Source of the DNA: the human T2T-CHM13v2.0 reference genome, Homo sapiens
Reading direction: 5' to 3'
Assembly (NCBI GenBank): GCA_009914755.4
Contig: CP068257.2
Span: forward strand, 43,776,001-43,840,000
DNA length: 64,000 bases
Positions 8,616 through 58,868 of the stretch are shown in pieces. Made by a program: the position numbers and the translations under genes. Under the pieces are notes generated by a model. The model was not told where the DNA came from. It worked only from the letters and a program-made list of their open reading frames with translations, and did not search any database. Positions within the stretch are counted from its first letter, which is position 1; the number at the start of each line of letters is the position of its first letter.

Positions 8616-8974
8616 TTTAGCATCGGGTTCCCGGGTCCCTCCCACCCCGACCTCCTGTGCCTGCGGCCCTGCGAGGCGTGATGGCCAATACACACCCTCT
8701 AGAGGGGCTTGTGTCATGTGGAACCAGCCAGACCCCCCGGACGGCTTGCAGGCAGGGAGATGGAGAAGCAACCCCTCCATGGGGCAGACAGTGCCATAGT
8801 CTTCACCGCCTCAGTCTGGGGGCATCAGGGCTGCAGGTCAGCTCTTCCCTGTCTTCAGTAAAGGATGGACGCGAGGACCAGGGTCCCCAGTGTCAGTGGC
8901 GGGTCAGGGATGCCAAAGTGCTGAGCAGAAGTTGGCCAGCCCTTGCCAGAGGCTCTGGAGCTGGGCCCTGACAC

Positions 8975-9245
8975 ACGATGCCGTGTGTAGTGACATGCAA
9001 TTCCATGTAGTGACGTGATTCCGTGTAGTAAGGCGATGCCGTGTGTGGTGACGTGCAGTTCCGTGTAGTGACGTGATGCCGTGTGTGGTGACATGCAGTT
9101 CCGTGTAGTGACGTGATGCCGGGTAGTGACGTGATGCCGTGTAGTGACGCAATGCCGTGTAGTTACATGATGCTGTGTGTAGTGATGCGCGATGCCGTGT
9201 GTGGTGACACGATGCCGTGTGTGGTGACACTTAATGTCATGTAGT
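8975..9245. repeat. Minisatellite of degenerate about 20-40 bp units (gtagtgacgtgatgccgtgtgtggtgacatgcagttccgt)
   Basis: Direct reading. The ORFs across it translate to repetitive HVTTRH peptides. Confidence 0.8.
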
Positions 9246-11799
9246 GACACGCTCGCAGGATCGCCAAGGCCAGGCTGGCTCCAAAGGCTTGGGTCCGGCT
9301 TCCTGGGGCCACTGGGTGCTCTCTGAGGCCGCCCATCACTGTTCGGGCCCTGGGGTGGGAGCTGGGCTGCAAAGTGGCCTGGACTTTATGTCCTGCCAGG
9401 TACAGTGTTTCCCTCAGCAGATTTATCAGGCGTTTTGGGTGTAAATGCCAGGAAGCCTGGCTGGCGCTGAAGGACCCTCCTCAAAGCCACGGATGGGCAC
9501 CATGCTTAGGGGAGGACCTGGGGCCACTTGGTTGCATTGTGAAATTTTCATGATTTTTAAACAGTTTTATTTTTTAAAATTACTGAAGTCCAACAGGAGC
9601 ATTATTCAGCATTTGAGGCCCCAGCCAGTACAGCGCTGCCTGGAATAAAAAGTAAAATGTCCCCCGGAACCCCAGCCCTCAGTTCTCCCTCCCTGGACCC
9701 CCCTCCTGAGAATCTTCTCACAACCTTGGCTTACTGACTCCACATTACGGCCGTGTCCCCGCTCTGTGGCCCGGTGGACGCAGGTAGCTTTGACTCAAAA
9801 CAGGAATTTGTTTCCATCCTTTCACGGTCACAAATAATAAAAAGCAGCTTCTGGACAACAATGAAGTTGAGATAAATACCAGGACCAGACCGGCCACGGG
9901 AGCCGTGGGTGAGCCGAGGGTCCCCCTCAGGACCCCTGCATCCTGCCTGAGTGTGCAGCAGCTCCCCCCGACAGGAGCGTCAGGGCCGGTCTCCTCCGAG
10001 TCTCCTGGCAGAGGCGTTGCTGTCGCAGCTGGCACTGTGCATGGCTGGCAGCAGAAGTCTGTGCTTGGCAGCCCTCGACACCTGCTGGATGTGTTTGCAG
10101 GGCTGGGCAGGCACCTGTCCCACGGCCCAGCCCCGAGGGTCTCGTGGCACCAGCCTGGCAGGACGGGCAGCAGGGAGTTAACGGGAGCCACTGCGAGGAC
10201 ACTGTGATCTCAGAGCTGCGTCATCGCTGATGGAAGAGGTGACGTCCCCTCCACAGAAAGCGCCTTTGTGGGCGACCCTGGCTCGTCCCCCTGCAGCCCC
10301 CACGCAGGTAGTGGGCTGCCCTCTCCCTCTCCCGGAGTCCCCTCGGGGCACCGAGAACAGACCCCTCCTTCATCCCTGCTGTCAGCTCATGACACCGGAC
10401 AATTTGGGTCCCAATTATATCTAGAGAACCAGGGGAAAGGTCACGTTGTCTAGACATTAATCCAGCACTGTGGCATTTTTTCCTGGGCCTGTATCCTGGC
10501 AACAGGAGGGCGAGTGGGGGCCCCAGCTCCTCCCCTCCTCAGAACCTTCTGGGGCTGGAGGTGTGGCATGTGCAGGGAAGGCAGCCTGGAGAAGGCGGTG
10601 CCCTTGGGCTGGGCCTGCAGTGGGCAGCCATGCAGGACTCCATGGGAGGAGAAACCACAGCTCTCGGCTGTGCTGGGGTGGGGTGAACAGTGGCGGGGAA
10701 CCTTGGGGAGCTGTGGATGGCCCAACCTCATTGGAAGCTGTGCGTGGCCAAGCTCAGGCACCTGCTCTGCCTCTCCCAGTCCTGCCTGTGTCTGTCCTGG
10801 TCACGGATTCCTACCTCTGTCCCAGGAGGGTGTGAGGACAGTCTGTGCCACTCACCCGTGTCTGCTCCGAGCCAGGAGACTCTGGCCACCCCCACCCCAC
10901 CCAGCCCTGCCTCGAGGTCCTGCACTGGTCCCTGCCCGGTACCGGGTCAGCTGGTGCCTGCCTGTCCTGCCCTGCACTCCTCAGGCTCCTCAAGGACAGA
11001 CGGACAGACAGGCACTCTAGAGAAGGGACCTTGGCCAGACGGCTTTGCCGCCCCCACCCCCATAGGTGCTTGCTTTGAGCCCCTTGCAAAGGTGAAGCCA
11101 GATCTGGGATCCCAGGGCCTGGTGCGGCTGGACATGGGAGGAGGGCCACGGTCACGCTTGCACGGGGCAGAGACTCCCAGAACCACAGGCCTCAGGAGAG
11201 CTGGGAAGGGAAGGAGAGGGCACTGCGGTGCCTGGAGAGCCAGAGTCCGCCCGTGTGGAAGTGTTGGGGGCTGTGTTGCAGTGACAGCCCTGGCGTCTCA
11301 GGAGCGGAGCAGGACACCGCGTTTCTGGCTGTGCAAGGCTCCACGCGGGTCAGCAGCCCATCCTGGCTTGTCATGCTGTTAATTAGATTGGAAAACCTCG
11401 GCCTTCCATTTCTTAAATTGCTCACTCCTGCAGTCCTCTTCTCTTGCCTGCAGGCCTGGAAGGTGTGGAGCGGGTCAGGTGGCTGGCAGGTTGCCAGGAA
11501 GGAAGCTCACACTGTTTCAGGGTTGGCCGGGTACTTGCCGTGCCTGCCTGGCACAGAGACCCTCATTCCTGCCACCTCCCAGGCAGTAGGCAGCCAGGTG
11601 GACCACCGAGTGGAGAGAACCTTTGAACACCTCAGCACCTGAGGCTCAGGGCCCTGTGACAGGACACAGCCCGGGGTCCCCCAGGGCCAGTTGCACCCCT
11701 CTGGAATTCCTGAGCACTGTGACTGTGACCTGTGTCATATGTGCGGCCTCTCAGCTTGCAACCCTCCATTCCTGCCTGTGGTGTGGTGCCATCTTCACC

Positions 11800-12055
11800 C
11801 CATTCCATGCCAACACACTCACACAGACACACGCTCGGGCCGATACGCACACATGGCTGTCACACACACAGGTTCACAGACACACAGGCTCACGCACACA
11901 CAGGTTCACATATACACAGCTCACACAAGCTCTCACACACACACGTTCACACACACAGGCTCACACATACAGGTTCACATACACATGGCTCACACACATG
12001 GGCTCACACACACACACACACATGCAGGCACACACAGGCTCACTGTGAGGTTTAA
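11800..12055. repeat. CA-rich low-complexity / degenerate tandem repeat (cacacaggctcac / cacacaggttcac)
   Basis: Direct reading. The ORF translations are HTHTH-type. Confidence 0.8.
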
Positions 12056-12110
12056 TCTCAGCAAAGTCTGAGCACCTGGACTTGGCTCAGGGACCCTGGC
12101 ACACCCGCTT

Positions 12111-12190
12111 GCTCTCTGTCTGTAGAGGGGCAGGAGGCCCTGGGTTTGGTGGGCTCTGTCTGTAGAGGGGCAGGAGGCCCTGGGCTTGGT
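12111..12190. repeat. Tandem duplication, 40 bp x 2 (ctctgtctgtagaggggcaggaggccctgggtttggtggg)
   Basis: Direct reading. Confidence 0.8.
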
Positions 12191-12545
12191 GGGCAGGCAT
12201 TTGGAGTGCGATGGCGGGGCCTCGCCTGTGGGCACTGAGGGTCTCACCTCTTCCTGCAGCTTTTGAAGGGATGGGAGGCTCCAGGATAGAGTTGCAGGAC
12301 AGAATAGATGGCAGAAGCCAGGAGCCGGGGCCTTTGCGTGGCTGCCTGGCCTGACGCACCTCGCGCCGTGCCAGGACCCGGGCAGGGCAGCAAAAGGCAT
12401 CTGTGAGTCGCCGTCCTGTGCGGGTCTCAGGGCACAGTGGGTGGCACGGGCTCTCCCAGCCGTCGGTTGGTGAAAAACGGGGCCTCCGCCCAGCACCCTG
12501 CCAAGGAAAGGGGAGGTAGCGGCCCCAGGTCAGGCCACTGGGTGA

Positions 12546-12949
<404 letters not shown>

Positions 12950-13317
12950 GAAGTGGTTTTAATGTCCCCACTTTTGACCACTTCTCCTTCTCCATAGGGC
13001 AAATCAAGCTTGGAAATGGTGTCCTGGAGCTTAAGGGAGTTGGAAACCATGGCTTATGTTCCATGGTGACATGGTTCTTGAGGGTTAGCTGGTCCAGTTC
13101 CCGCGTGTTGGCCGGTCTGGTCCCTGAGTGTTGGCTGGTCCACTTCCTGAGCGTTGGCCAGCTGCCCTTGCTGTGCTGGGGTACATTCCCCGAGCTTCCA
13201 CAGTTTCCCTTTCCTTGCTGCTGTATTCAGTGATTTGCAGAGAGAAAGGCGTGGAGCTCCACAAGCACCTCGGACGGCAGCAGGACCCTCCCAAAGCTGT
13301 GTCCACACACAGCTGGG

Positions 13318-13345
13318 CGCCCGCCCCCCGCCCCCCGCCCCCCGG
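13318..13345. repeat. (CCCCCCG)3-4 microsatellite
   Basis: cgccccccgccccccgccccccgg read directly. Confidence 0.7.
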
Positions 13346-15794
13346 AGGGCCCGGCTCCAAGGGTCATATGAGTGGATCTGGAGGTCGGCCTCTCTTGAAT
13401 CCCAGCCTCCTCGGGGTCAGCCCAGGTTGTCCCCACCCCCACCTGAGTTACTGCGGAACCAAGGGGCTCATGGCCATTGAGTGACTCCAGTTAATGCTGA
13501 ATTAGGTACCTCAGGCTTGAGTCAAATATTAACAGAGGAGGCCGGCCAGAGCTCCCCAGTGTTTGGAGGATAGCTTGGTTTTCTCCCTGAGTGCATTGCC
13601 CATACCGGGTGGAGGCAGTTCCGTCCTGCAGACTCCGTGGTTCTGAGTTGGAGCCCTTACTGGCCAGTTTAAGACCCTCTTGGAGCAGGGTTCTGCAGTG
13701 TCCTGGGGGCAGAGGCCTGACGCACTCAGCTGCTCGCCCAGGGCCCTCCTGTTGGGCATTTGGATTTGGAATCTGAGGCTGTAGGAGCAGCTGCCTCCCA
13801 GTGAATTCTGATGCACAGACAGGGGCCTGTCCTGCCAGCAGGTCCTGCAGACGGAGCCGGGCCAGGGTGCTGGGCAGTGCTGCGGGGCCCTGGTGGAAAC
13901 AGTCCCTGCAGAGGGTCCCGGGCACTGGTGCTGGGGGGAGGGTAGGGCTTAAGGAGGCCTCATGTCGGGACCCTGGCAGGCCACCCCACCTCCCGCAGTG
14001 CCCGGTCCGCCATCCACAGTGACACAGGGACACCTTCTCAGGTGGAGGAGGTGGCAGTCACGGCAATTCAGGAGCAAACCCAGGCTTCCTGTGCCTCTGT
14101 GGTGGGCCCTGGTGGTGTTGGCAGGCCCAGGGCACAGGCAGGCTCAGGGCTCTGCTGGGGAGCAGTGGGAGGCCCTCTCTGCAGGGCGGAGAGCCAGGTG
14201 AGGAGGTGTGTGGCGCAGGTAAACACGCCTGGAGCGCAGCTCTGCTGTGGGTTAGCCGTGGGTCTCTGGGCGAGGGTTCCCGGGATACAGACACCTGCCC
14301 CAAGGTGCCCCACAGAGGATGACCCCCAGGGCAGCCGTGCCTGAGCCTGCGTGGTCACCTCCCACAGTGCCAAGGCGCTCCCCCAAGGCCCCTGCGGCCC
14401 ACCTGACCAGTGGAGAACTCGCGAGCACTCGGCCAGTGGTGCCTCCAATTTGCAGCCTCCAATCCCTGGTCAGAGGTGTGACCTGACCCTGGACCAGAGC
14501 GCTGGGCCAGGTCCTGGTGGCTTCTGCCCTTCAGCTTGGAAGCTCCTGAAAACCGGCTCCCTTCCGGGGCAGCCCTTGGCCCCCACTGACCCTCCCTCAG
14601 TCCTAGGTGTGCAGTGGCGTGGGGACCCTGGGAGGCCCGTGGCGCAGCCCCTTCCCGCCTCCTGCCCGTCGGTTTCCATTGCTCAGGCACTGCCTCGCCC
14701 GCGCCTCTTTCTCCCAGACCTGAGCCACCGCTGCCAGGATCCTTCCCCAGCTGGTTTTCCTTCTCTTTGATGTGTTTCCACTGAGGGTCCAAACCGGTCC
14801 AGGCGCGGGTTCCAGAACTTTCTTCAGATCTCTCGCACCTGAAAATTTCCTCTGTAGCCATTCGCAGGAGGTTTCTCAGATGCCCCGGGCTCGGGGGCCA
14901 GTCAGTCTCATGAGGACGGGGTGGGTCTGACTTGTGGCATCGCGGCCTCTCCATCGGTGCTGCTGGGCCTGTGAGCCAATGGGTGGGCAGCACCACCCAC
15001 CGCCTCCTTCCTCACACCAGTCTTGGGCTGCGCAGAGCCCCAGCCATGTGTGTGCTGAGTGCAGTGTGACCGCGTCCGCCCGTCTCCCCGGACACGCCTG
15101 TTGGAGCCCCGGCCGTGTGTGTGTGTGTGCTGTGAGTGCAGTGTGACCGCGTCCACCTGTCTCCCTGGACACGCCTGTCAGAGCCCCAGACTGGGCTCCC
15201 CTGGAGGACCCTGGTGCTGACACAGAGTCAGCGGGTCCCTGGGGTCCCTGCAACTGTCCCCCAAGAGGTGTGCATGGAGGTGGACCCCCTGCCTCACCCT
15301 CGGGTGGCCCAAGGCCTCTGAAAACCGTCACGGCAGGGGTCACAACCCCACTCACCCACACCCTCCTGCATGAACACTGCACAGCTACCTCCCGTGGGCT
15401 GCCCTGTGAGGTGTGGAGCTGGGCTGCAGACTTGCACAAGGTGGGGTCCTGTGTCTGGAGTCAGAGGGTCCCTCTCGTCGTCCAGCCTCCCCGGCTCCTC
15501 AGGGGGAGGTTCGGGGCCTTTGGTCTCTGGACTTGGGCAGCAGAAAGGAAACATCCCTGGGGGCCTGTGGTGACCCCCATCCTCCCCAGGGTGGTCTGGC
15601 AGGGGACACTGTTTTCCAAAGCAAAGCCAGAGCGCCAAGGGCTCTCGGGATTCACGAGATCCACATTTATCCCAAGTTAGAACAGCACATCTGTGCGTGC
15701 AAACTTCATTCTGACTTCGGCCGGCTGTCCTTCTTGCCCAAAGCACCGTGAGGCCTCATCCCTGCATCCCTGTTGCTTCTTTCATGTGGGATGA

Positions 15795-26984: not shown

Positions 26985-28195
26985 CACCACAGCATCACAC
27001 AGGCACTCTCCTGCACACACACACTCACACACACACTCAGACACACAGGCACTCTCCTGCACACACACTCACACTCAGACACAGGCACTCTCCTGCACAC
27101 ACACTCACACTCACAGACACACAGGCACTCTCCTGCACACACACACACAGACACAGGCACTCTCCTGTACACACACACTCACACACTCAGACACACAGGC
27201 ACTCTCCTGCACACACACACACTCACACAGGCACTCTCCTGCACACACACACACACTCAGACACACAGGCACTCTCCTGCGCGCACACACACACACTCAG
27301 ACACACAGGCACTCTCCTGCACACACACACTCACACTCAGACACACAGGCACTCTCCTGCACACACACACTCACTCACAGACAGACACACAGGCACTCTC
27401 CTGCACACACTCACACTCACAGACAGGCACTCTCCTGCACACACTCACACTCACAGACAGGCACTCTCCTGCACACACTCACACTCACACACAGGCACTC
27501 TCCTGCACACACACACTCAGACACACAGGCACTCTCCTGCACACACACACTCACACTCAGACACAGGCACTCTCCTGCACACACACACACACAGACACAG
27601 GCACTCTCCTGTACACACACACACTCACACACTCAGACACACAGGCACTCTCCTGCACACACACACACTCACACAGGCACTCTCCTGCACACACACACAC
27701 TCAGACACACAGGCACTCTCCTGCACACACACACACACACACAGGCACTCTCCTGCACACACACTCACACTCAGACACACAGGCACTCTCCTGCACACAC
27801 ACACACTCACTCACACACAGACACACAGGCACTCTCCTGCACACACTCACACTCACACTCAGACAAGCACTCTCCTGCACACACTCACACTCACACTCAG
27901 ACACACAGGCACTCTCCTGCACACACACTCACTCAGACACAGGCACTCTCCTGCATACACACACTCACACTCAGACACACAGGCACTCTCCTGCACACAC
28001 ACACTCACACACTCAGACACACAGGCACTCTCCTGCACACACACACACTCACACACTCAGACACACAGGCACTCTCCTGCACACACACACACTCAGACAC
28101 ACAGGCACTCTCCTGCACACACACACACTCACACACTCACTCAGACACACAGGCACTCTCCTGCACACACACACACTCACACACTCAGACCCTCA
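26985..28195. repeat. Large VNTR, about 1.2 kb, units of about 37-41 bp (cacacaggcactctcctgcacacacac[tc]acac[tc]cagacac), about 30 copies
   Basis: Direct reading. It accounts for the three overlapping 480-608 aa '[15 protein letters not shown]' ORFs, which are artefacts. Confidence 0.95.
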
Positions 28196-29039
28196 CACTC
28201 CAGGGCTGGGCAGGGGACCCCGGACCTGGCCTCTGGAGCTCATCCCTGGGTGCCTGGGCAGGGAGTGCCGGTCACACTGTGCACCCATCCTTGTTTTCTC
28301 GATGTTGGGTTTACTTTTCCTGCCGGCTGCACGGCCTGCCCTTCTCAGGGCTTTGGGCTACTCTGCAGGGCTGGTGTTCAGGGCAGGAAAGGGGAAGGGG
28401 CAGTGGAGAGGGAGTGTGTGCTGTAGAGGCTAAGACCCCATTTGCACTGAGCCCTTCCATGGCTGTTCAACTCTGACGGGAGTCCACTGAGGCTCAGGAC
28501 GCCTCTGCAGGGTGCCAGGGCCACGCAAGCTCCACAGCACGTGGACAAAGGCGCATCTAATCCTTGCAGGCAGAGTGGCTTATTAGACACGTTAGCAGGT
28601 CTGTCTGTGCAGCCGGAAGGAAGAAAGTGAAGTTAGATGCCCACATGTGACTTGGCATCCAGAGGCACATTCCAGATGGCGACCCGGGGCTCCCTGGTGT
28701 GGTCTGGGGGCCGGTGGGGGCCGAGGGGCTGCTGTGGGTCTGTGTGGAGATGGATACCGAAAGCCACAGGACGTGCTTAGGGACTTGCATGGCAATTTGG
28801 CAGGGCCGTTCCCAGCGCAAAGAAAGGCTGTCGGAGGTGCAGGCCACGCTCATCACCCGCATCTGACCCCACCAGGCATCCCACAAATGTGACCCTTATG
28901 TGTCTGTTAAAAACTACACTTAACGTTTTTTAATTCGAGAAAACCTATCTGTTGCTGTTATGTACAGTGCTGTAATCAGCAAACGTGTTCCTTGGTCATT
29001 TCCGCAACAGAACACAGTGGGAGGGGCCTGCTCTTCCGC

Positions 29040-29560
29040 AGCACCCCAGGCAGGCCTGGACCGCCCGAGTGGCCGTGGTCCAGGGGCGCGGAGGGCGCAG
29101 CGCGTTCCGTTTCGGCTCCTCTGGTGCGTGCCTCGTGTGCGTGTGAGCAGAGGCCGTGTGGATGCCGGGCGCCCGCCGGTCACGGGCTGGTGGGCAGAGA
29201 GGTCATGACCTTTTACTTTCTAGGCCTTTACGTATCGCAACGTGTGCGTTACGTTCATCATAAAAACGTCCGACGAAACCAAGAGCAAAGTGAACTTCTT
29301 GGTGAAAGTTGCCATTGGGACTTCGGTGCCTGCTGAGAAATGCCTGGGCCTCTGGCTCCCCCTGGCGGCCGGTCCCTGGCTTGACGGAAGCGCGTCGCGC
29401 GGGCTCCAGACGTCCTGGGCCAAGTCCTGTGCGCGGGGCCTCCGGGTCTGCGAGCTGCGGCCGTGTTCAGAGCGTGTTTTGCCCGGAGCTGCTGCCAGCC
29501 TGGGCGGCTTTGGGCGCGTGCAGCAAGCAGGGTTTGGATTTGGAAGTGCAGCTCGTCCTG
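29040..29560. promoter_or_regulatory. Intragenic CpG island (about 47 CpG in about 520 bp, observed/expected about 0.9), within COL18A1 intron 2
   Basis: CpG count made by hand. The flanks are GC-rich but CpG-depleted. There are many CpGs even in an AT-rich context (acgtatcgcaacgtgtgcgttacgttcatcataaaaacgtccgacgaaacc). No coding ORF with a recognisable product. Confidence 0.6.
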
Positions 29561-30242
29561 GCGCCAAGCACAGAGCCTGGCCTCTAAGATGCTCGAGAAA
29601 TGCCGCTCTCTGCGCCCCTGAGTGCTCAGTGCGAGCCTGTGAAGTCCATTACAGTCTCCGGCTGTGAATGTAGCAAGGAGTGGGAACTAGGCCTGGGAGA
29701 TGGGAGTGTTTGTCTGATGACTTCCTGAGCGAAAGCAAACTGGGAAATCTCGGGCTGCGCGCTGGTGCCCCGACTCCGCACCTCCTACCCCTTCTGTGGG
29801 GCCAGCACCCAGAAAGCGCCAGCGGAGGCTGGCAGGCCGTGGGCCGCATGGGCGGAGGGGCCGGTCCTCCGATGATGGGGCAAACGTCTCCGGCCTAGCC
29901 CCCGACGCTCGGGGATGTAAGGGCAAGGGCTGCGGGGTCGGAACGTCGGCTGTGGCTGTGGCTGTGTGACTGCTCCGCACCAGCTCAGCTTCCTCACCTG
30001 TGCACACAGGCTCCCGCTGGAATTTGCTGCGTTCTCCAAGCTCTGCAAGATTCAGAAGCAGAGGCCTCCCTGGGCTCTCACAGCCCCTTAGCTTCTTGCC
30101 CACCCACGGAGAGGGTCCAGAGCTGCCCCTTGCTGTCTGTGAGGAAAGCGGGTGCTTCAGGCCTGCCAGGGGTCCACTGGGAGTTGCTGGGTGGGCTCCT
30201 CAGGCCCTGCCCAGGGCTGACCCCTGGCTCCAGGTCCTGGGC

Positions 30243-30620
30243 CTCCGTGCCATGTTCCCCGCAAGCAGTCGGGGCCTGCTGGGGTTTGAGCCACGTTCCC
30301 CGGAAGCAGTCGGGGCCTGCTGGGGTTTGAGCCACGTTCCCCGGAAGCAGTCGGGGCCTGCTGGGGTTTGAGCCACGTTCCCCGGAAGCAGTCGGGGCCT
30401 GCTGGGGTTTGAGCCACGTTCCCCGGAAGCAGTCGGGGCCTGCTGGGGTTTGAGCCACGTTCCCCGGAAGCAGTCGGGGCCTGCTGGGGTTTGAGCCACG
30501 TTCCCCGGAAGCAGCTGGGGCCTGCTGGGGTTTGAGCCACGTTCCCCGGAAGCAGTCGGGGCCTGCTGGGGTTTGAACCACGTTCCCCGGAAGCAGTCAG
30601 GGCCTGCGGGGGTTTATGTC
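30243..30620. repeat. Minisatellite, 42 bp x about 9 (gagccacgttccccggaagcagtcggggcctgctggggttt)
   Basis: Direct reading. It produces the repetitive 99-167 aa minus-strand ORFs. Confidence 0.95.
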
Positions 30621-32424
30621 ACACCCTGGCTGCACGTGGGGATCGTGTCTAAGCTTTTTGGAAATGTCGATGCCGGACTCCGCCCCAGACCTGGAGCTAG
30701 GAACTGGCCCCTGGCCGTGGGCCCAGGCAGGGTGAGGTTTCCCAGCACCCTGGGTGATCTGAACTTGGGAGCAGGGCTGGAACCTGGGGGCAAGATCAGC
30801 ACTTCTAGGACGTTATCGTGCGTGGGAACCACGGGACGCTCACTCATAGGAGGCTCAGCAGTTCTCTCGCTGTGCCGAGGCTGATGGAGACCTCACTGCT
30901 TGCCCCCGGGATGCAAACCCCGGGGACACCCGCCTTTCCGCTCCAAGCTCTGCCCACCGCCTCACATGGCCCTGGGAATTACAACAGACTTTCCCATCTC
31001 CCCACTATGGGCGGAATCTGCTGCAGCTGCCCAGACCTGGGGTCTTGCAGGTTCTGGACACCACAGCTCCCCTACACACAGAGGCTGCTCCTGCGTGGCC
31101 CTGGTCCCTCACCTCTACTTCTGGCACACGCTCCTCCACCTGCTGCCCTTCAGGGTTCATCGAGGTCTTATTTTGGTTCTGTACTGGGAGAGGGGGAAGC
31201 AATGGGGCAAGACGCTGCCCCTACTGTCCCCAGAAGATGAGGGACAGCACAGATGCCCAGGTAGAGTTTTCCTGTGTTAAATCATAAAACCCCCACATGC
31301 CCATCCCAGGTGCCCCACCTGCCCCAGCAGCTGCCTCCAGGCCTCGGGACGCTTGAACCCACCTCGAGGGCTGCCAGCTCCTGGCCTGGAGGTGCCCCCA
31401 CCGGGTCCTCCAGTCCTGCTGCCCGGTGGCTCTGGCCATGGTTCCCGTCCCGGGCTGTTCATGTTCCCCCTGCTCCTCTCCGTGATCTGCCATCTCTGCT
31501 TCACCAGCCGGCGCCTTCTACAGAACACGGCCGTGAGCTTCCCATGTTCTGCCGCTGGCTCTTCACGCCAACAGGTCTCCTCTGAGCAGGGCCAGCTTAT
31601 GGCATGGCGCCGGGTCAGCTCTCACCTGTCCCCCTCAGACGCCCACCTCTGATATGCAACTATTTCCAGCAGAAAATGTCCCATGTCCTTAAAGGATGGA
31701 GCACGCTGCTGGGAACACGGCTCTCTCCATAAAGGAGGGACTCCCCATGCCACTCCCAAGGCCACGGGAGGCCGCCCTCAGCACAGGGTCCATGGGGTCT
31801 CGGGGTCTCCCTGCCAAAGCACAGGCCTGGTGACCCCCTGGGACCCTCACTCCAGGGAGAGGACTGTGCATCTTGTGTGCTTCTCACAATCACTGTGTGG
31901 GGTTCAGCCCAGGGGAGGTCACCTCGCCCTCATCCACGCAGTCCTGCGGGGAGGCCCATTTGCCCTGACTGCACAGTCCTGCAGCTCGGCTGTGCCCTTG
32001 AGTGGGTGGCGCTGCCCTGTTGCCCACCGTAGCTGCTGTGGGGCCACAGCCTTGAGCCTGGACACTGGCCATGACTGGATACCACCGGTGCACAGGGTGC
32101 ACGTGAGGAAACCCTAACCGTTCTGTGCCCGTGCCTTGCTTTTTCTCCTTTAAATCCCACCTGTGAGTTTTATTTTTGTAACTGCAGAGCATGATGAAAA
32201 CCGTGAAGCCACAGAGGCACACGTCGTGTCTGTGGGGAGGGCCCCTCACTCTCTGGCTGCACATCACCCATGTGTCTCACTCACCATGGGTGTCCCTGCC
32301 CCTGAGCCCACCCTCACCTCTGTCAGCTGGGCAGGCGCTGCCCTGTCAGCCTCTGCCTCCACTTCCTCCACTCCTGGACATCGTAGTCTCTGTCGCCGGG
32401 TAGTAGCAGGGCCGGACCCCTTCG

Positions 32425-32900
32425 GATGAGCACGCCCAGGCCCAAGAGTGGCAGTCCTGGTGTGGGCGGTGGTGCTGGTGTGGGCGGCGGTCCTGGTGTG
32501 GGCAGCGGGGCTGGTGTGGGCAGCGGTGCTGGTGTGGGCGGCGGTCCTGGTGTGGGCGGTGGTGGTGCTGGTGTGGGCGGAGGTCCTGGTGTGGGCGGCG
32601 GTCCTGGTGTGGGCGGAGGTCCTGGTGTGGGCGGTGGTGGTGCTGGTGTGGGCAGCGGTGCTGATGTGGGTGGTGGTGCTGGTGTGGGCGGTGGTGGTGC
32701 TGGTGTGGGCAGCGGTGCTGATGTGGGTGGTGGTGCTGGTGTGGGTGGCGGTGCTGGTGTGGGCGGCGGTGCTGATGTGGGTGGTGGTGGTGCTGATGTG
32801 GGCGGCGGTGCTGGTGTGGGCGGTGGTGGTGCTGGTGTGGGTGGTGGTGGTGCTGATGTGGGCGGCGGTGCTGGTGTGGGCGGCGGTGCTGGTGTGGGTG
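32425..32900. repeat. Minisatellite, 18 bp x about 26 (ggtgctggtgtgggcggc variants)
   Basis: Direct reading. The translations, GVGGGAGVGGG on the plus strand and PTPAPPP on the minus strand, are artefacts. Confidence 0.95.
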
Positions 32901-34689
32901 GATTCCTGGAGGACAGCTGGGTCTTGCATCCAGCACAGGTCCTGGTGCCTGGGAGGTGCTTACCCCATGGCCCCAACCGGCACAAGTGTGGCTGTCACAG
33001 CTGGGGTCTGGGTAGGTCTGGCAGCCCCATGGGAACCTGGCTGTGTGAGCCTGCCCTGGGGCCTTCCATGAGAAAACCCAGTTAAGGAGCAACCTGGTAA
33101 ACCCTTGAAAACCAAGTGGGCCTTCACCAGCTTGAAAGGCCGCCCGTGCCTTTCCTCCTTGGCCCTCACAGCCCAGCTCGGCATCGCAGCAGAGTCCCGG
33201 TGGTGGAGATGCTTTGCCACTGGCCACCCAGAGCTAGGAGCCTCGGCCAAGGGCTCCCTCCTTGCACTGTGGTCTCTCGGGACCTAGGAGGTCCCGGGGT
33301 GTGGACTGTGCTGAACTGTTCTCCGACAGGCGGCCCTTTTTCTCCCACGTGGGCGAAAAGTGAAGCCTCTGGGTGGTCCTGTACCTGTCTGTCACATCCC
33401 GGGCTGCAGCCGGGTCCCCAGGGAGGCCTCCGTGAAAACACAAATCAAGTGCCAATTTCCTGGTGAAGAGTCTTTATGAGAGCAATGCGGCCCCGTGCCC
33501 CTTTACGCGGCTCTGCTGGTGGAGAGGAATAGCTGAGCTGCAGCACTAAGGAGAGATGCCTGCTGCATGATCCCCTAGATGCGTCCGAGGGACACTGGAC
33601 ATCTGGTGGCCCTCCAGACTCCTAGGAAGGGGACCGTCCTCCCAGTGGCAGCCAGGACTGCCTGTCCTCTTTTGGGTGGCCAGGATGTCACAGGGCGAGT
33701 AGGTGTCTGGCCCTACCACTGGGGGGCCATGTTGCCACGCAAGAATTCAGTGTCCCTCTGTGGGGAACGTGCTTCCCGGCTGCCACGCTGTCGCTCTCTC
33801 TTGTCTTCTGTTCGGCCCCTTCCCCGTTGCACATCCTGGCCTGGCGTGGTCGTCCCGTGGCGTCCTCTACCCTTTCCCATGTGACACATTCGCTCCATGG
33901 TACCTCCTGCCTCCCGAAATCACCTCTAAGTTCACTTTGTGCCAGGTTTTGTTCTCCAGCGCATCTTCAGTGCTGCGAGCAGGCTGGGCTTGCAGCAGGA
34001 GCACGGGTGTGCGTGTGGAGTGAATGAAGGGCCGTGTGCCCGAGTAGGTGGCGTGCAGGGGTGTAGTGAGGTGCGTGCAGGGGTGTAGTGAGGTGTGGGA
34101 TGTGCAGAGTGAATGAAGGACGTTGTGCTCGTGTGGGTGATGTGCGGGGTTGTGGTGAGGCGTAGGGCTGGGGTCGGCTGGTCGTCCGGACTTTTGGTTT
34201 TCTGGCTGTAAAATGCACATGCCAGGATAGTTGTGAGGTGCACGCTCACTCGTGCATGGAGGGTGGTTCCACAGTGCTGTGGACAGAGGAGCCCTCGATA
34301 AATGCCAGCTGCGAGCACCGGGGGCCAGCACGAGAGCAGCTCTGAGAGCCTGGGTCGTGCAGGGCGAGAGAGGCTCCGGGGAGTGGAGGCTGTGAGCCAG
34401 GGAGGAAACACTACTCCACGTGTTAGGAGGAAGCCACGTGCTCCTCGAACATGCTGGTACTAGGTTTGAAAACCAACATTAGCAGCAAAGATGACTCCGT
34501 GTCCATACCCTAGTTTTTAAAAGTTGATATAGCCCCTCTAAAAATGAGTTTGAAAGCACAGGAATTTATAAGAGAAAAACTTTCATCAAATACATGAAAA
34601 AAATCAATCTCACTCAAAATGGAATTAATAAGAAATCAAGCAGCATTAAGGATTGCGTGGTTTGGAAAATGTGATGTGGGTCTCCCTTG

Positions 34690-41989: not shown

Positions 41990-43150
41990 TCTGAGAGTGC
42001 AAGTACATGGTGAGTGTGCTTGCCTGTGTGCGTGTGTGTGTGAGCATGCATGGCAGAGCTGAGCATGCATATGCACTCTGTGACATGTGTAAGCATGTAT
42101 GTGAGCTTGTGTATGCATGTATTCATGTGTGACGTGTGTGTATATATGTGAGCTTGTGTATGCATGTGAGTACTCACGTGTGACATGTGAGCATATATGT
42201 ACGTGTGTGTTTCTGTATGCATGTGTGTATTCACGTGACGTGAGCATGCATGTACATATGTGATTGTGTATGCATGTGAGCATTCATGTGACACATGTAA
42301 GCATGTATGTACATGTGGGGGCTTGTGTATGCATGTGAGCATTTGTATCTGACATGTAAGCATGTGTGTGTGAGCTTGTGTATGCATGTATTCATGTGTG
42401 ACATGTGTGAGCATGTATGTGAGTTTGTGTATGCATGAATATTCACATGTGACGTGTGAGCATATATGTACGTGTGATTGTGTATGCATGTGAGTATTCA
42501 CTGACGTGTGAGCATGCATGTACATATGTGATTGTGTATGCATGTGAGCATGTATGACATGTGTAAACATGTATGTATGTGGGGCTTGTGTATGCATGTG
42601 AGTATTCACATGTGACATGTGAGCATGTATGTACATGTGTGTGAGTATTCACATGTGACATGTGAGCATGTATGTACATGTGTGACCTTGTGTGTGCATG
42701 AGTATTCACATGTGACATGTGAGCCTATATGTATGTGTGTGATTGCGAGTATTCATGTGTGACATGTAAGCATGTATGTACATGTGTGAGCTTGTGTATG
42801 CATGTGAGCATTCATGTATGACATGTAAGCATTATGTATGTGTGTGGGCTTGTGTATGCGAGTATTCACATGTGACATGTGTGAGCATGTATGTGTGTGT
42901 GATTGTGTATGCATGTATTCATGTGTGACATGTGAGCATGTATGTACATGTGTGTGCTTGTGTATGCATATGAGCATTCATGTCTGGCACGTACGCTTAT
43001 ATGTACATGTGTGGGGGCTTGTGTATGTGAGTATTCACATGTGACATATGGCATAGCTAAGCATGCATGTGCATGTGTTCATGCATGAGCAGGAGTGAGC
43101 ATACATATATGTGTGCATATGTGGGTGTTCGTGTGTGAGCATGTGCGTAC
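41990..43150. repeat. Large degenerate minisatellite, about 1.1 kb (gtgtatgcatgtgagcattcatgtgacatgtgagcatgtatgtacatgtgt units of about 50-60 bp)
   Basis: Direct reading. It accounts for the HMH/THT-rich ORFs on both strands. Confidence 0.9.
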
Positions 43151-45046: not shown

Positions 45047-45252
45047 CCTTGGGTGCTGGAACCCCCGGGTGCTGGGCACCTTGATTCCAAGGCTGGTGCC
45101 TTCTTTCCTTCTGCAAGAGTGGGGGGTGGAAGACAGCCGGCCAGAGGCTGGGAAGCCTGCACAGGGGAGGGCAGGAGGGCGTGAGCCTGGCTAGCCCCAC
45201 CTCCAGGCACAGAGGCCCTCCCGCCGCCCGCAGCTCCAGCCGCACTGCCCCG

Positions 45253-46603
45253 ATGGCTCCCTACCCCTGTGGCTGCCACATCCTGCTGCTGCTCTTCTGC
45301 TGCCTGGCGGCTGCCCGGGCCAACCTGCTGAACCTGAACTGGCTTTGGTTCAATAATGAGGACACCAGCCACGCAGCTACCACGATCCCTGAGCCCCAGG
45401 GGCCCCTGCCTGTGCAGCCCACAGCAGATACCACCACACACGTGACCCCCCGGAATGGTTCCACAGAGCCAGCGACAGCCCCTGGCAGCCCTGAGCCACC
45501 CTCAGAGCTGCTGGAAGATGGCCAGGACACCCCCACTTCTGCCGAGAGCCCGGACGCGCCAGAGGAGAACATTGCCGGTGTCGGAGCCGAGATCCTGAAC
45601 GTGGCCAAAGGCATCCGGAGCTTCGTCCAGCTGTGGAATGACACTGTCCCCACTGAGAGCTTGGCCAGGGCGGAAACCCTGGTCCTGGAGACTCCTGTGG
45701 GCCCCCTTGCCCTCGCTGGGCCTTCCAGCACCCCCCAGGAGAATGGGACCACTCTCTGGCCCAGCCGTGGCATTCCTAGCTCTCCGGGCGCCCACACAAC
45801 CGAGGCTGGCACCTTGCCTGCACCCACCCCATCGCCTCCCTCCCTGGGCAGGCCCTGGGCACCACTCACGGGGCCCTCAGTGCCACCACCGTCTTCAGGT
45901 AGAGCTTCTCTCTCCTCCTTGCTGGGCGGGGCCCCTCCCTGGGGAAGCCTGCAGGACCCAGACAGCCAAGGACTCTCGCCTGCCGCAGCCGCTCCCAGCC
46001 AGCAGCTCCAACGCCCTGACGTCCGCCTGCGCACGCCACTTCTGCACCCCCTGGTGATGGGCTCCCTGGGCAAGCACGCGGCCCCCTCCGCCTTCTCCTC
46101 TGGGCTCCCGGGCACACTGTCTCAGGTCGCAGTCACCACTTTAACCAGGGACAGCGGTGCTTGGGTCTCCCACGTGGCTAACTCTGTGGGGCCGGGTCTT
46201 GCTAATAACTCTGCCCTGCTCGGGGCTGACCCCGAGGCCCCCGCCGGTCGCTGCCTGCCCCTGCCACCCTCCCTGCCAGTCTGCGGCCACCTGGGCATCT
46301 CACGCTTCTGGCTGCCCAACCACCTCCACCACGAGAGCGGCGAGCAGGTGCGGGCCGGGGCACGGGCGTGGGGGGGCCTGCTGCAGATGCACTGCCACCC
46401 CTTCCTCGCCTGGTTCTTCTGCCTGCTGCTGGTCCCCCCATGCGGCAGCGTCCCGCCGCCCGCCCCGCCACCCTGCTGCCAGTTCTGCGAGGCCCTGCAG
46501 GATGCGTGTTGGAGCCGCCTGGGCGGGGGCCGGCTGCCCGTCGCCTGTGCCTCGCTCCCGACCCAGGAGGATGGGTACTGTGTGCTCATTGGGCCGGCTG
46601 CAG
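45253..46603 (+). CDS. COL18A1: COL18A1 'exon 3' coding part: first coding exon of the promoter-2 (medium/long) isoforms. It encodes the signal peptide (MAPYPCGCHILLLLFCCLAAARA), an acidic/Ser-Pro-rich region and the frizzled-type cysteine-rich domain (CRD). It ends at the GT donor at 46604. An internal alternative donor lies at 45898/45899.
   Basis: An open frame of 450 codons plus one base runs from the ATG at 45253 (the ORF track extends upstream only because it accepts a GTG start). It ends ...LIGPAAG|gtaactgg in phase 1. The translation matches my recollection of the collagen XVIII long-isoform N-terminus, including the 10-Cys frizzled CRD (CLPLPPSLPVCGHLGISRFWLPNH...CCQFCEALQDACWSRLGGGRLPVACASLPTQEDGYCV). 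Both the terminal donor and the internal donor cag|gtagag are in phase 1, compatible with the next exon. Confidence 0.9.
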
Positions 46604-46859
46604 GTAACTGGCCGGCCCCGATCTCCCCACCCTTTCCTTTTTGCCTTGCCAGGTAAGTGTGGGCGGGGCTGACGTGAGCCTGGTACAGGTTCCCCCCACA
46701 TCGAATCTCTACGTTCAGGGGCCCGTGGCCCTCGGGAGGTGGGAGAGCTGGGAGTGAGGCCTCCTGTGTGGGGAGGAGGCCGGCGTCTGGACAGGAAGAG
46801 GGCTGGATGAACCGCAGCCGATGTGTCCAGGTGCCACCTGGGCCTGGAGCTCCCTGAGC

Positions 46860-49739: not shown

Positions 49740-50050
49740 CATCCTCTGACCTGGGAGCTGCGTATTGTTCCCGTTTACAGGTGAGAAACTGAGGCCTAGG
49801 AAGGACAGACACGTGTGCGTGCCGCAAGTGTGGCTAGCAAGGAGGGAGCCTGGAGGAGGGCCCAGCAGCCTGGCCCCAGAGCGCTCTTCAGCATCGCAGC
49901 AGATGCAGGACAAGCAAGCTCCCAGCCGGGGAGCACCAGGAGACCAGCAGGCATCCACCCTCGTGGTGCAGGCCATCTGATGAGGGCAGGGACCAGTGCC
50001 GGGATGGATAGTGCCTGTGCACAGAGTGGGGCGCAACTGGGCACAGCTGC
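49740..50050 (+). repeat. Left copy of an about 300-bp inverted duplication (partner at 51096-51400); it contains a MIR-like tail at 49740-49800
   Basis: The reverse complement of this segment aligns along its whole length with 51096-51400 with roughly 10-15% mismatches. It is also visible as paired ORFs: 49659-50102 (-) ...CAQLRPTLCTGTIHPGTGPCPHQMACTTRVDACWSPGAP... versus 51004-51387 (+) ...CAPLHPTLCMGTVHPAPVPTPYQMACTIRVDTCWSPGAP... Confidence 0.85.
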
Positions 50051-50739
50051 CACCGGGGTGCTCGGGAGGCAGGTCCACACACACGCCGGCCAAGTCGCTC
50101 ATCTCAAATGCACGAGTCCCGTGATCTTGGAAAGTGGTGCACAGGCCCCTGGGCTGGGGCTTCCTCTGCCTCCACCCCCATCACTGGACATTCGGAGGTC
50201 AGTGGGAGGCCACGGGAGTGCACGTGAAGGTCATGTCACCATGATGGCCCCGAGGGGCTGCTCCTTCATCGCTCCTCCCTACCCCATGGGCCAGCCACTG
50301 GCACACAGGTGTCCTTATATGGTGCTTACCTCTTGCTCCTTTAGTCAAATGCAGAATTTGAGAAAATGTCCCTTCTCCTTAAAATGCTTTGATTTGTTTG
50401 ATGTTTCCATGTAACTTTGGTTTAAGAAGGGAGAAGACCACTCTGGGAAATAACTCATGCTTATCTCTCACCGCTTGGCAACCTACAAATATTTTTTCGA
50501 TGATGCTGGCTAAGCTTCTCGTAAATTCTCCATGCCTCTTAGATGCACCAAGAGTGACTCAGCATTTAACTCCTACTGGAGTGTCAAGGGCCCAGTGCAT
50601 TGGGTGCAGTTGTCTGTGGGTACAAGATCTTGTGTGATTCTGAACTAAGCACAGACAGAATGAAAAGCACAGCACTCCAAACAGGGCTTCCTGCAGGTCC
50701 TTTTACGTATATTTGGGTTTTTGTATATATCTAAGGTCA

Positions 50740-50964: not shown

Positions 50965-51075
50965 TGTTAGCATTCCCAGATAAACAAAAGCTAAGGGGGT
51001 TAATTGCCACTAGACCTTCCCTGCAGGAAATGGTCCAGTAGTCCAACAGGCGAAATGAAAGGACACTACTCAGTA
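50965..51075 (+). mobile_element. Short L1 ORF1-end fragment in sense orientation, an inverted copy of 51590-51700
   Basis: cattcccagataaacaaaagctaagggggttaattgccactagaccttccctgcaggaaatgg matches the L1 ORF1 C-terminus and is the reverse complement of the sequence at about 51640-51700. Confidence 0.75.
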
Positions 51076-51095
51076 ACAGTAAGTCAAGGAGGCCC

Positions 51096-57779: not shown

Positions 57780-58868
<1,089 letters not shown>

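What the first reader, a model, noticed from the sequence alone, without database searches (positions are those of the whole stretch)
29040..29560. Sharply delimited orphan CpG island deep in the intron, about 16 kb upstream of exon 3
Although the whole window is GC-rich, CpG is depleted almost everywhere, as expected for methylated intronic DNA. This about 520-bp block is the exception: about 47 CpGs, observed/expected near 0.9, including CpGs embedded in AT-rich sequence (acgtatcgcaacgtgtgcgttacgttcatcataaaaacgtccgacg). That is the signature of constitutively unmethylated DNA. It has no recognisable coding potential. It could be an unannotated or antisense lncRNA promoter, or an alternative or enhancer-type regulatory element for COL18A1. 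I faintly recall antisense transcripts annotated in this intron but cannot place them by coordinate.
Basis: seen in the sequence. Interest (0 to 1): 0.6.

Follow-up and report, generated by a model that had tools for sequence, protein, structure and literature searches.

The report
Conserved intragenic CpG island in COL18A1
This is a real CpG island about 1 kb long, non-coding and also present in an Old World monkey, lying inside the long intron of the human collagen XVIII gene; it is an ordinary example of the thousands of "orphan" CpG islands, and what it regulates could not be tested here.

Summary
Window 29,040-29,560 has 49 CpGs, GC 64.7% and observed/expected 0.91, against 0.37 for the whole window. 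It is the top-ranked block of that size in the 64 kb.

The island is larger than reported: about 28,896-29,960 (1,065 bp, 82 CpGs, o/e 0.82). Its right edge near 30,000 is sharp and its left edge is gradual.

It is unique sequence. It is not a tandem repeat or an in-window repeat, matches no Rfam family or tRNA, shows no stable RNA fold, and is not coding.

The gene is COL18A1: the exon-3 ORF carries DUF959 and Fz domains, with its ATG at 45,253. Published COL18A1-AS1 primers and siRNAs map exactly to the minus strand at 9.7-14.9 kb. The window is therefore human, and the island is not the promoter of that antisense RNA.

African green monkey (Vero) contigs contain the same island: 41-42 CpGs in the core (o/e 0.72) against flanks of 0.1-0.3. 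CpG retention between species is 62% in the island and 27-38% in the flanks, compared with about 86% if CpGs changed like other bases. This indicates partial, long-term germline hypomethylation.

The best CTCF-like motif in the window sits at the island centre and is conserved. Promoter, CTCF or enhancer function could not be tested. The kind is well known, so interest is low to moderate.

The parts
28896..29960 (.). Full CpG-rich domain (the island as I would delimit it): 1,065 bp, GC 0.615, 82 CpGs, o/e 0.82
   Evidence: sliding windows, CpG per 100 bp, Takai-Jones union 28,642-30,004. The orthologous domain in the monkey contigs also stands out from its flanks.
29040..29560 (.).
   Evidence: The ortholog has 41-42 CpGs here with o/e 0.72.
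29040..29190 (.). Left GC-rich lobe: GC 0.75, 19 CpGs. It varies in length between species (the monkey has extra GTGGCCGTGGTCCAG copies).
29191..29345 (.). AT-rich core that keeps its CpGs: GC 0.47, 9 CpGs, o/e 1.05.
   Evidence: Non-CpG identity to monkey is 0.911, no higher than the flanks, so there is no sign of special constraint. No RNA fold signal.
29200..29211 (.). Perfect 12-bp palindrome AGGTCATGACCT: two nuclear-receptor half-sites with no spacer (thyroid/retinoid response element type, identified from memory)
   Evidence: Only match in the window even with one mismatch allowed; 21 of 100 shuffles give at least one such match. Identical in the monkey.
29346..29560 (.). Right GC-rich lobe: GC 0.70, 21 CpGs, 14 of them conserved in monkey
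29353..29371 (-). CTCF-type motif CGGCCGCCAGGGGGAGCCA, the best-scoring site in the whole 64-kb window (16.0 bits). A CpG falls within the core of the motif.
   Evidence: using a matrix recalled from memory, so this is a lead and not a test. 0.25% of dinucleotide-preserving shuffles of the domain reach this score, but about 0.8 such sites are expected per shuffled window. The block 29,351-29,372 is identical in monkey.
29561..29960 (.). Right shoulder of the island: 28 CpGs, o/e 0.69. It ends sharply near 30,000.
   Evidence: 15 of 21 human CpGs in 29,561-29,900 are conserved in monkey.

Best explanation
This is a genuine, evolutionarily maintained intragenic ("orphan") CpG island of about 1.07 kb. 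It lies in the long intron of human COL18A1, between the upstream promoter and the exon-3 promoter.

Shown here:
- The CpG excess is real and is the strongest in the window.
- It lies in unique, non-coding sequence with no recognisable RNA gene.
- It is present at the same place, with the same contrast to its flanks, in an Old World monkey.
- Its CpGs have decayed more slowly than flanking CpGs since the two lineages split.

Inferred:
- The DNA has been at least partly unmethylated in the germ line over that time.

Likely mechanism, from general knowledge of CpG islands and not tested here:
- Unmethylated, CpG-dense DNA binds CXXC-domain proteins, acquires H3K4me3 and stays nucleosome-poor.
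- It then serves as a weak or tissue-restricted start site for non-coding transcription, and as a regulatory contact point for the COL18A1 promoters.
- The conserved CTCF-type motif at its centre may add methylation-sensitive CTCF binding.
- The strand and the tissue of any transcript are unknown.
For: - Composition: 49 CpGs with o/e 0.91 in the core and 82 CpGs with o/e 0.82 in the domain, against 0.37 for the window. It is the top-ranked block, with P = 3e-8. TpG and CpA excess is lower inside the island than in the flanks.
- Not a repeat: it belongs to no in-window repeat family and no tandem array covers 28,192-30,248.
- Not an RNA gene and not coding: no Rfam or tRNA hit, fold z-scores of -0.2 and -0.6, no Pfam hit, and no protein relatives beyond the monkey ORF.
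- Ortholog: twelve Logan contigs (L001-L012) from monkey runs align at about 86%. One run is documented as Vero E6 cells (PMC12867005). In these contigs the island has o/e 0.55-0.84 against flanks of 0.07-0.45.
- CpG retention: 51/82 in the island against 48/125 in the flanks, p = 0.001. Leaving out a second CpG-rich patch, the flanks give 16/60, p = 4e-5.
- Motif: the best CTCF-type match in the window is at the island centre and is conserved.
- RNA: one contig over the island (L004) comes from a total-RNA library.
- Background: about half of mammalian CpG islands are orphans, and many show transcription initiation (PMC2944787).
Against: - CpG retention of 62% is clearly below the roughly 86% expected for fully protected CpGs, so protection is incomplete or the island is eroding.
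- Non-CpG identity inside the island (0.926-0.935) is the same as in the flanks (0.92-0.94). There is no sign of purifying selection on the sequence itself.
- The ACGT-rich string is not well conserved in monkey.
- Only one outgroup lineage could be obtained, so losses and gains cannot be told apart.
- The RNA evidence is weak. Flanking intron sequence is assembled on as many monkey contigs (12-14) as the island (about 16). The RNA-derived contig may therefore be COL18A1 pre-mRNA or DNA carry-over.
- No methylation, CAGE, chromatin or CTCF occupancy data could be consulted.
- The CTCF matrix was recalled from memory.
Confidence: 0.5

Rival explanations
1. The island is already the annotated promoter or first exon of a known non-coding gene, for example COL18A1-AS2 or another GENCODE lncRNA. 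In that case it is not an orphan at all.
For: COL18A1-AS1 lies in this same intron on the minus strand at 9.7-14.9 kb, so antisense transcription units do occur here. A second antisense gene name, COL18A1-AS2, appears in the literature, but I could not place it. On the minus strand there is an ATTAAA at 28,929-28,934 and a strong splice-donor match at 29,997.
Against: No paper in the searched library gives coordinates or sequence for COL18A1-AS2. Searches for COL18A1 together with the estimated genome coordinates found nothing relevant. The annotation itself could not be consulted.
Confidence: 0.2
2. The island is mainly a CTCF-bound boundary or loop anchor that separates the domains of the two COL18A1 promoters. 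It stays unmethylated because CTCF occupies it, and it has no promoter activity of its own.
For: The best CTCF-type motif in the 64 kb lies at the centre of the island and is identical in monkey. A CpG falls within the core of the motif, and from memory of CTCF structural work a CpG there can make binding methylation-sensitive.
Against: The matrix was recalled from memory. About 0.8 sites of this score are expected by chance per window of this composition. A single CTCF site does not normally explain a CpG-rich domain of 1 kb. Occupancy is untested.
Confidence: 0.15
3. The island is a by-product with no function. In this GC-rich region with many minisatellites, GC-biased gene conversion or a decaying ancestral island leaves a CpG-rich patch that is methylated in most cells.
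For: Island CpGs are lost faster than other bases: 62% are retained against about 86% expected. Non-CpG divergence is no lower than in the flanks. Minisatellites flank the island at 26,995-28,190, 30,249-30,615 and 32,457-32,900. A weaker CpG-rich patch also exists at about 33.7-34.5 kb.
Against: The AT-rich core keeps o/e 1.05, which GC-biased conversion would not produce. The same sharp contrast with the flanks is present in the monkey. CpG retention is significantly higher than in the flanks.
Confidence: 0.15
4. The island is the CpG-island component of a poised, Polycomb-marked enhancer. It helps a nearby enhancer communicate with the CpG-rich upstream COL18A1 promoter.
For: Orphan CpG islands have been shown to do this at developmental genes (bioRxiv 10.1101/2020.08.05.237768). 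A conserved nuclear-receptor-type palindrome lies inside the island. From memory, Kague et al. 2010 (Dev Biol 337:496) found tissue-specific enhancers in human COL18A1 non-coding sequence. That paper could not be read here.
Against: There is no chromatin data. Whether the upstream COL18A1 promoter is CpG-rich was not examined, because it lies outside the window. No evidence links this block to the elements tested by Kague et al.
Confidence: 0.1
5. The block is a coding exon, a structured RNA gene, a young transposable element, or a tandem repeat.
For: Mechanical ORFs of 82-141 aa overlap the block. One monkey ORF (P0001) was called as a gene in public assemblies.
Against: - There are no Pfam hits.
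- Human and monkey align only across two frame shifts and stop codons.
- An exhaustive HMMER search found only the query itself and a spurious repetitive bacterial protein.
- No Rfam or tRNA hits and no fold signal.
- No repeat family or tandem array in the window.
- No similarity to a MIR consensus recalled from memory beyond shuffle level.
- The block predates the human-monkey split, so a methylated transposable element would by now have lost its CpGs as the flanks have.
Confidence: 0.02

Closest known systems
Orphan (intragenic) CpG islands as defined by Illingworth et al. 2010 (PMC2944787)
   Same: It is CpG-dense, GC-rich, unique sequence remote from the promoters located here: 15.7 kb from the exon-3 start codon and about 14 kb from COL18A1-AS1. 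Its position is conserved in another primate, and it lies inside a gene body.
   Different: That class was defined biochemically, by CXXC capture of unmethylated DNA, and by H3K4me3 and RNA polymerase marks. None of these could be checked. Cross-species CpG retention here is only intermediate, which suggests weaker protection than at typical promoter islands.
The CpG-rich promoter of COL18A1-AS1 described in PMC9253045
   Same: It is in the same intron of the same gene and is a CpG-rich patch. That promoter is reported to be silenced by methylation in kidney cancer.
   Different: It is a different element. COL18A1-AS1 primers and siRNA targets map to 9,711-14,873 on the minus strand. The CpG patch there (14,651-14,950, o/e 0.64) is much weaker than the island studied here.
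Orphan CpG islands attached to poised enhancers (Pachano et al., bioRxiv 10.1101/2020.08.05.237768)
   Same: It is a distal CpG island inside the regulatory domain of a developmentally regulated gene, with candidate transcription-factor motifs inside it.
   Different: There is no evidence of enhancer or Polycomb marks, and the target promoter was not examined.
Methylation-sensitive CTCF sites, such as those of the H19/IGF2 imprinting control region (from memory)
   Same: A good CTCF-type motif containing a CpG sits inside otherwise CpG-dense DNA.
   Different: It is a single motif rather than a cluster. There is no evidence of occupancy, allele-specific methylation or imprinting.

Membership tests
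CpG island (sequence definition: Gardiner-Garden and Frommer 1987; Takai and Jones 2002) | Length at least 200 bp, or at least 500 bp under the stricter definition | tested here: met
   The core is 521 bp and the domain 1,065 bp. The union of Takai-Jones windows is 28,642-30,004.
CpG island (sequence definition: Gardiner-Garden and Frommer 1987; Takai and Jones 2002) | G+C at least 50% (strict: 55%) and CpG observed/expected at least 0.6 (strict: 0.65) | tested here: met
   Core: GC 0.647 and o/e 0.91. Domain: GC 0.615 and o/e 0.82.
CpG island (sequence definition: Gardiner-Garden and Frommer 1987; Takai and Jones 2002) | Not explained by an Alu or other repeat | tested here: inconclusive
   The block shares nothing with the Alu copies or any other repeat family in the window and contains no tandem array. 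No genome-wide repeat library was available, so an old single-copy transposable-element fragment cannot be excluded.
CpG island (biological definition) | Unmethylated in germ line or early embryo | not testable with these tools
   Only indirect evidence is available. CpG retention between human and monkey is 62% in the island against 27-38% in the flanks, with a neutral expectation of about 86%. This is consistent with partial hypomethylation.
Orphan CpG island promoter (Illingworth et al. 2010) | Remote from any annotated transcription start | tested here: inconclusive
   It is 15.7 kb from the exon-3 ATG and about 14 kb from COL18A1-AS1. Other annotated lncRNAs, such as COL18A1-AS2, could not be placed.
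Orphan CpG island promoter (Illingworth et al. 2010) | Evidence of transcription initiation (CAGE, RNA polymerase II, H3K4me3) | not testable with these tools
   One orthologous contig comes from a total-RNA library of Vero E6 cells. Flanking intron sequence is assembled just as often, so this does not show initiation.
Orphan CpG island promoter (Illingworth et al. 2010) | Conserved position in other mammals | tested here: met
   The island is present at the orthologous place in African green monkey contigs, with the same contrast to the flanks. No species beyond Old World monkeys could be obtained.
CTCF binding site or insulator | Match to the CTCF core motif | tested here: met
   A 16.0-bit match at 29,353-29,371 on the minus strand is the best in the window and is conserved in monkey. 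The matrix was recalled from memory, so this is a lead.
CTCF binding site or insulator | CTCF and cohesin occupancy, and insulating activity | not testable with these tools
   No ChIP-seq or Hi-C data were available.
Structured non-coding RNA gene (snoRNA, miRNA, tRNA and others) | Match to a covariance model, or a fold more stable than shuffles | tested here: not met
   No Rfam match reaches its gathering score anywhere in the window. Only matches with E-values of 0.27-6.3 fall near the island. No tRNA was found. Fold z-scores are -0.19 and -0.55.
Protein-coding exon | Reading frame conserved between species, or similarity to a known protein | tested here: not met
   No Pfam hit. Human and monkey align only across frame shifts and stop codons. 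No relatives were found among 5.8 billion protein clusters or 1.84 billion representatives.

The most novel reading that the evidence does not exclude
The island is a methylation-sensitive CTCF-bound switch, with its own weak non-coding start site. It sits between the two COL18A1 promoters and helps decide whether a tissue makes the short (upstream promoter) or long (exon-3 promoter, liver-type) collagen XVIII isoforms. Its methylation state could then matter for endostatin precursor levels or for Knobloch-syndrome-like regulatory variants.
Probability: 0.08. Interest if true: 0.5.

Novelty: already known. Interest (0 to 1): 0.22.

Why it matters
COL18A1 has two promoters that produce tissue-specific isoforms of the endostatin precursor, and loss of the gene causes Knobloch syndrome. 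A conserved unmethylated element between the two promoters is a reasonable candidate regulator of isoform choice, and a plausible site for disease- or cancer-associated methylation changes.

As a kind of feature it is routine. Intragenic orphan CpG islands number in the thousands. This block passes the standard sequence criteria comfortably, so any genome browser's CpG-island track will list it. The useful results here are:
- The sequence signal is real.
- The island is about twice as long as first described.
- It predates the human-Old World monkey split.
- It is not the COL18A1-AS1 promoter.

Tried and rejected
1. Structured RNA gene. Rfam at gathering thresholds over the whole window, and at E up to 10 over 28.4-30.4 kb, gave only chance-level hits. 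ARAGORN found nothing, and fold z-scores were near zero.

2. Coding exon or pseudogene. No Pfam hits. The protein searches returned only the monkey ORF P0001. The exhaustive representative search added only a spurious repetitive bacterial protein.

3. More distant orthologs:
- The profile of human plus monkey translations found nothing new.
- The six-frame concatenated query returned nothing, not even P0001, probably because low-complexity candidates filled the candidate cap. That search was wasted.
- Both metagenome scans were empty.
- Exact look-ups of human ORFs found nothing.
- Cluster members gave more contigs, all from the same monkey lineage.

4. Discrete transcript idea. Three monkey contigs end within 42 bp of each other at the island's left edge (window 28,922-28,964), and one of them comes from a total-RNA library. 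I considered that this marks a transcript end. I rejected it as evidence for three reasons:
- Contigs were selected for containing an ORF inside the island.
- Other contigs end at 29,068 and 29,425, or run through the position.
- Flanking ORFs are found on as many contigs as island ORFs.

5. The 1.86-kb gap in the monkey contigs (window 30,258-32,118) as a spliced intron. There is no GT-AG at the junction, so it is a genomic insertion or deletion that starts at the 41-bp repeat array.

6. COL18A1-AS1 promoter. The primers and siRNAs place that gene 14 kb away.

7. Literature. Searches for COL18A1 with the estimated genome coordinates, and for COL18A1 with CpG island and intron, found nothing about this block. 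Kague et al. 2010 is not held in the library.

8. MIR-element origin. Alignment to a consensus recalled from memory scored at shuffle level.

Full report
**Observation.** I read window 28,500-30,200 and recounted. The reported block 29,040-29,560 is 521 bp with GC 0.647, 49 CpGs and observed/expected (o/e) 0.91. The whole 64-kb window has GC 0.586 and o/e 0.37, with TpG and CpA in excess at 1.36 and 1.46, as expected for methylated DNA. Among all 521-bp windows, the highest o/e (0.97, start 28,896) and the highest CpG count (50, start 28,998) both overlap the finding. At the background o/e only 20 CpGs are expected, giving Poisson P = 3e-8. The AT-rich string with embedded CpGs is at 29,230-29,276. 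The AT-rich core 29,191-29,345 has GC 0.47, 9 CpGs and o/e 1.05.

**Boundaries.** The reported boundaries are not correct. CpG density stays at 4-9 per 100 bp from 29,600 to about 30,000 and then falls to 2 per 100 bp. On the left it rises gradually from about 28,500. I delimit the island as 28,896-29,960 (1,065 bp, GC 0.615, 82 CpGs, o/e 0.82). The union of windows meeting the Takai-Jones criteria is 28,642-30,004.

**Context.**
- The ORF 45,181-46,656 on the plus strand carries Pfam DUF959 (E = 4e-53) and Fz (E = 1.5e-15). This is the architecture of the long collagen XVIII N-terminus. The MAPYPCGC start codon is at 45,253, so the island lies 15.7 kb upstream of exon 3.
- Alu copies are present in the window.
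- Published human qPCR primers for COL18A1-AS1 (PMC9253045, supplementary table 3) match 20 of 20 bases at 14,854-14,873 (minus strand) and 12,462-12,481 (plus strand). The three siRNA targets match the minus strand at 11,364, 10,199 and 9,711.
- The window is therefore human. COL18A1-AS1 runs on the minus strand over at least 9.7-14.9 kb, and the island is not its promoter.
- COL18A1 qPCR primers map at 58,120 (plus) and 58,389 (minus), which confirms the gene's orientation.

**What the block is not.**
- Not a repeat within the window. No repeat family or tandem array covers 28,192-30,248. It is, however, flanked by minisatellites at 26,995-28,190, 30,249-30,615 and 32,457-32,900.
- Not a known RNA family. 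No Rfam match reaches its gathering score anywhere in the window, only chance-level matches lie near the island, and no tRNA was found.
- The AT-rich core folds no better than shuffles on either strand, with z-scores of -0.19 and -0.55.
- Not coding. The overlapping ORFs have no Pfam match. The only relative among 5.8 billion protein clusters is a 238-aa ORF (P0001) called on orthologous monkey contigs. Human aligns to it only through two frame shifts and stop codons. An exhaustive HMMER search of 1.84 billion representatives added only a spurious repetitive bacterial protein.

**Ortholog.**
- P0001 and its cluster members led to twelve Logan contigs, L001-L012.
- Eleven of them are 99.7-99.98% identical to one another. 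L005 differs by about 1.3-1.6%.
- One source run, SRR36445422, is documented as a TruSeq stranded total-RNA library of a virus grown in Vero E6 cells (PMC12867005).
- The species is therefore African green monkey or a very close relative. The non-CpG identity to human of 92-94% fits an Old World monkey.
- The contigs align to window 28,164-30,257 at about 86% identity and resume at 32,119. They lack 30,258-32,118, and the junction has no GT-AG, so this is a genomic insertion or deletion.

**Conservation of the island.**
- In the monkey the core has 41-42 CpGs with o/e 0.72.
- Along the 6-kb contig, the island windows have o/e 0.55-0.84 against 0.07-0.45 elsewhere. The exception is a second small patch that corresponds to human 33.7-34.5 kb.
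- Of the 82 human CpGs in the domain, 51 (62%) are CpG in the monkey and 16 are TpG or CpA.
- In the flanks 48 of 125 (38%) are conserved, Fisher p = 0.001. Without the second CpG-rich patch the flanks give 16 of 60 (27%), p = 4e-5.
- If CpGs evolved like other sites, about 0.93 squared, or 86%, would be conserved. The island's CpGs are therefore protected relative to the flanks, but not fully.
- Non-CpG identity in the island (0.926-0.935) equals that of the flanks. The sequence itself shows no extra constraint at this evolutionary distance. The ACGT-rich string in particular has several changes in the monkey.
- Comparing the two monkey lineages with human as outgroup gives 2 recent CpG losses in the island against 5 in the flanks. 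That is the expected direction but is not significant, p = 0.24.

**Candidate functional motifs (leads only).**
- With a CTCF matrix recalled from memory, the best site in the whole window on either strand is CGGCCGCCAGGGGGAGCCA at 29,353-29,371 (minus strand, 16.0 bits). It sits in the middle of the island, in a block identical in the monkey.
- Only 0.25% of dinucleotide-preserving shuffles of the domain reach that score. About 0.8 such sites are expected per shuffled window, so the site's existence is not remarkable. Its position and conservation are mildly suggestive.
- A perfect palindrome of nuclear-receptor half-sites, AGGTCATGACCT, lies at 29,200-29,211. It is unique in the window and conserved in the monkey, but it was noticed after the fact.
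- On the minus strand there is an ATTAAA at 28,929-28,934 and a strong splice-donor match at 29,997. No AATAAA or ATTAAA occurs on the plus strand between 27 and 33 kb.
- G-over-C skew on the plus strand across the island is weak, 0.07-0.16.
- None of these settles whether a transcript starts here or on which strand.

**Transcription evidence.** One contig over the island (L004, window about 28,890-30,041) comes from a total-RNA library. I first thought that the clustered left ends of three contigs (28,922, 28,927 and 28,964) marked a transcript boundary. Three points argue against this. The contigs were found because they contain an ORF inside the island. Other contigs end at 29,068 and 29,425, or run from 28,164 to beyond 34 kb. 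ORFs in the flanks are seen on 12-14 contigs, similar to about 16 for island ORFs. The data therefore show only that RNA, or carried-over DNA, from this intron is present in Vero cultures. They do not show that the island has its own transcript.

**Interpretation.** The block is a true intragenic CpG island that predates the human-Old World monkey split, and its CpGs have been partly shielded from methylation-driven decay. The most likely reading is an orphan CpG island of the kind described by Illingworth et al. (PMC2944787). About half of mammalian CpG islands fall in that class, and many show transcription initiation and developmental methylation. By analogy, unmethylated CpG-dense DNA would recruit CXXC-domain proteins and H3K4me3 here. 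It would then act as a weak or tissue-restricted non-coding start site and regulatory contact point, possibly with CTCF bound at its centre. These steps are inferred and were not shown here.

**Rival readings.**
- The island is already the promoter of an annotated lncRNA such as COL18A1-AS2, which I could not place.
- It is a pure CTCF boundary.
- It is the CpG-island part of a poised enhancer (bioRxiv 10.1101/2020.08.05.237768).
- It is a functionless, slowly eroding CpG-rich patch in a GC-rich region with many minisatellites.

**Novelty and interest.** The kind is well known. This block passes the standard criteria by a wide margin, so it will already be in routine CpG-island annotation. I found no paper dealing with it specifically. 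It is a sensible candidate regulator between the two COL18A1 promoters, but nothing here would surprise a specialist. Public methylation, CAGE and ChIP tracks would settle its status within minutes.

Noticed in passing
window 9,711-14,873 (minus strand): COL18A1-AS1 can be placed exactly. Published qPCR primers match at 14,854-14,873 and 12,462-12,481, and the siRNA targets match at 11,364, 10,199 and 9,711. A weak CpG-rich patch at 14,651-14,950 (o/e 0.64) sits at its 5' end.
   Followed up: yes
window 30,249-30,615 and 30,258-32,118: A 41-bp unit is repeated 9 times at 97% identity immediately to the right of the island. This array and the following 1.5 kb are absent from all green monkey contigs, and the junction has no splice-site signature. 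It is either a human-lineage insertion or expansion, or a monkey deletion.
   Followed up: partly
window 26,995-28,190: A CA-rich complex minisatellite of 1.2 kb (units of about 34-40 bp, about 30 copies) with very strong C-over-G skew. Five of the twelve monkey contigs break at its edge (window 28,164).
   Followed up: no
window 32,457-32,900: A G-rich 18-bp minisatellite (CTGGTGTGGGCGGCGGTG, about 24 copies) with strong G-over-C skew and o/e of about 0.64-0.70. It is an example of a repeat-driven CpG-rich block, in contrast to the unique-sequence island.
   Followed up: no
window 33,728-34,532: A second, weaker CpG-rich patch (o/e about 0.65) that just meets the strict island criteria. It is also visible in the monkey contig (o/e about 0.7). 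CpG retention across 32,860-34,409 is 49%, between the island and the other flanks.
   Followed up: partly
window 8,901-9,350: A CpG-rich block (o/e 0.77) made of degenerate units of about 20 bp (GTGTAGTGACGTGATGCC and similar). It lies just beyond the most 3' COL18A1-AS1 siRNA target mapped here (9,711).
   Followed up: no
window 49,843-50,054 and 51,118-51,329: An inverted repeat with 212-nt arms, 83% complementary and 1,063 bp apart. Further nested inverted pairs lie at 50,967-51,720. It may be a transposon remnant in the intron downstream of exon 3.
   Followed up: no
window 42,090-43,060: A TG-rich minisatellite of about 1 kb (GTGTATGCATGTGAG-type units of 49-59 bp), about 2 kb upstream of exon 3.
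   Followed up: no
window 28,673-28,685: CAGATGGCGAC resembles a YY1-type motif (recognised from memory). It lies about 220 bp to the left of the island domain.
   Followed up: no
L006 (SRR12653367), last 20 bases: The contig ends in an Illumina adapter sequence (AGATCGGAAGAGCGTCGTGT), so adapter read-through was assembled into this public contig. The end of the contig is not genomic.
   Followed up: no
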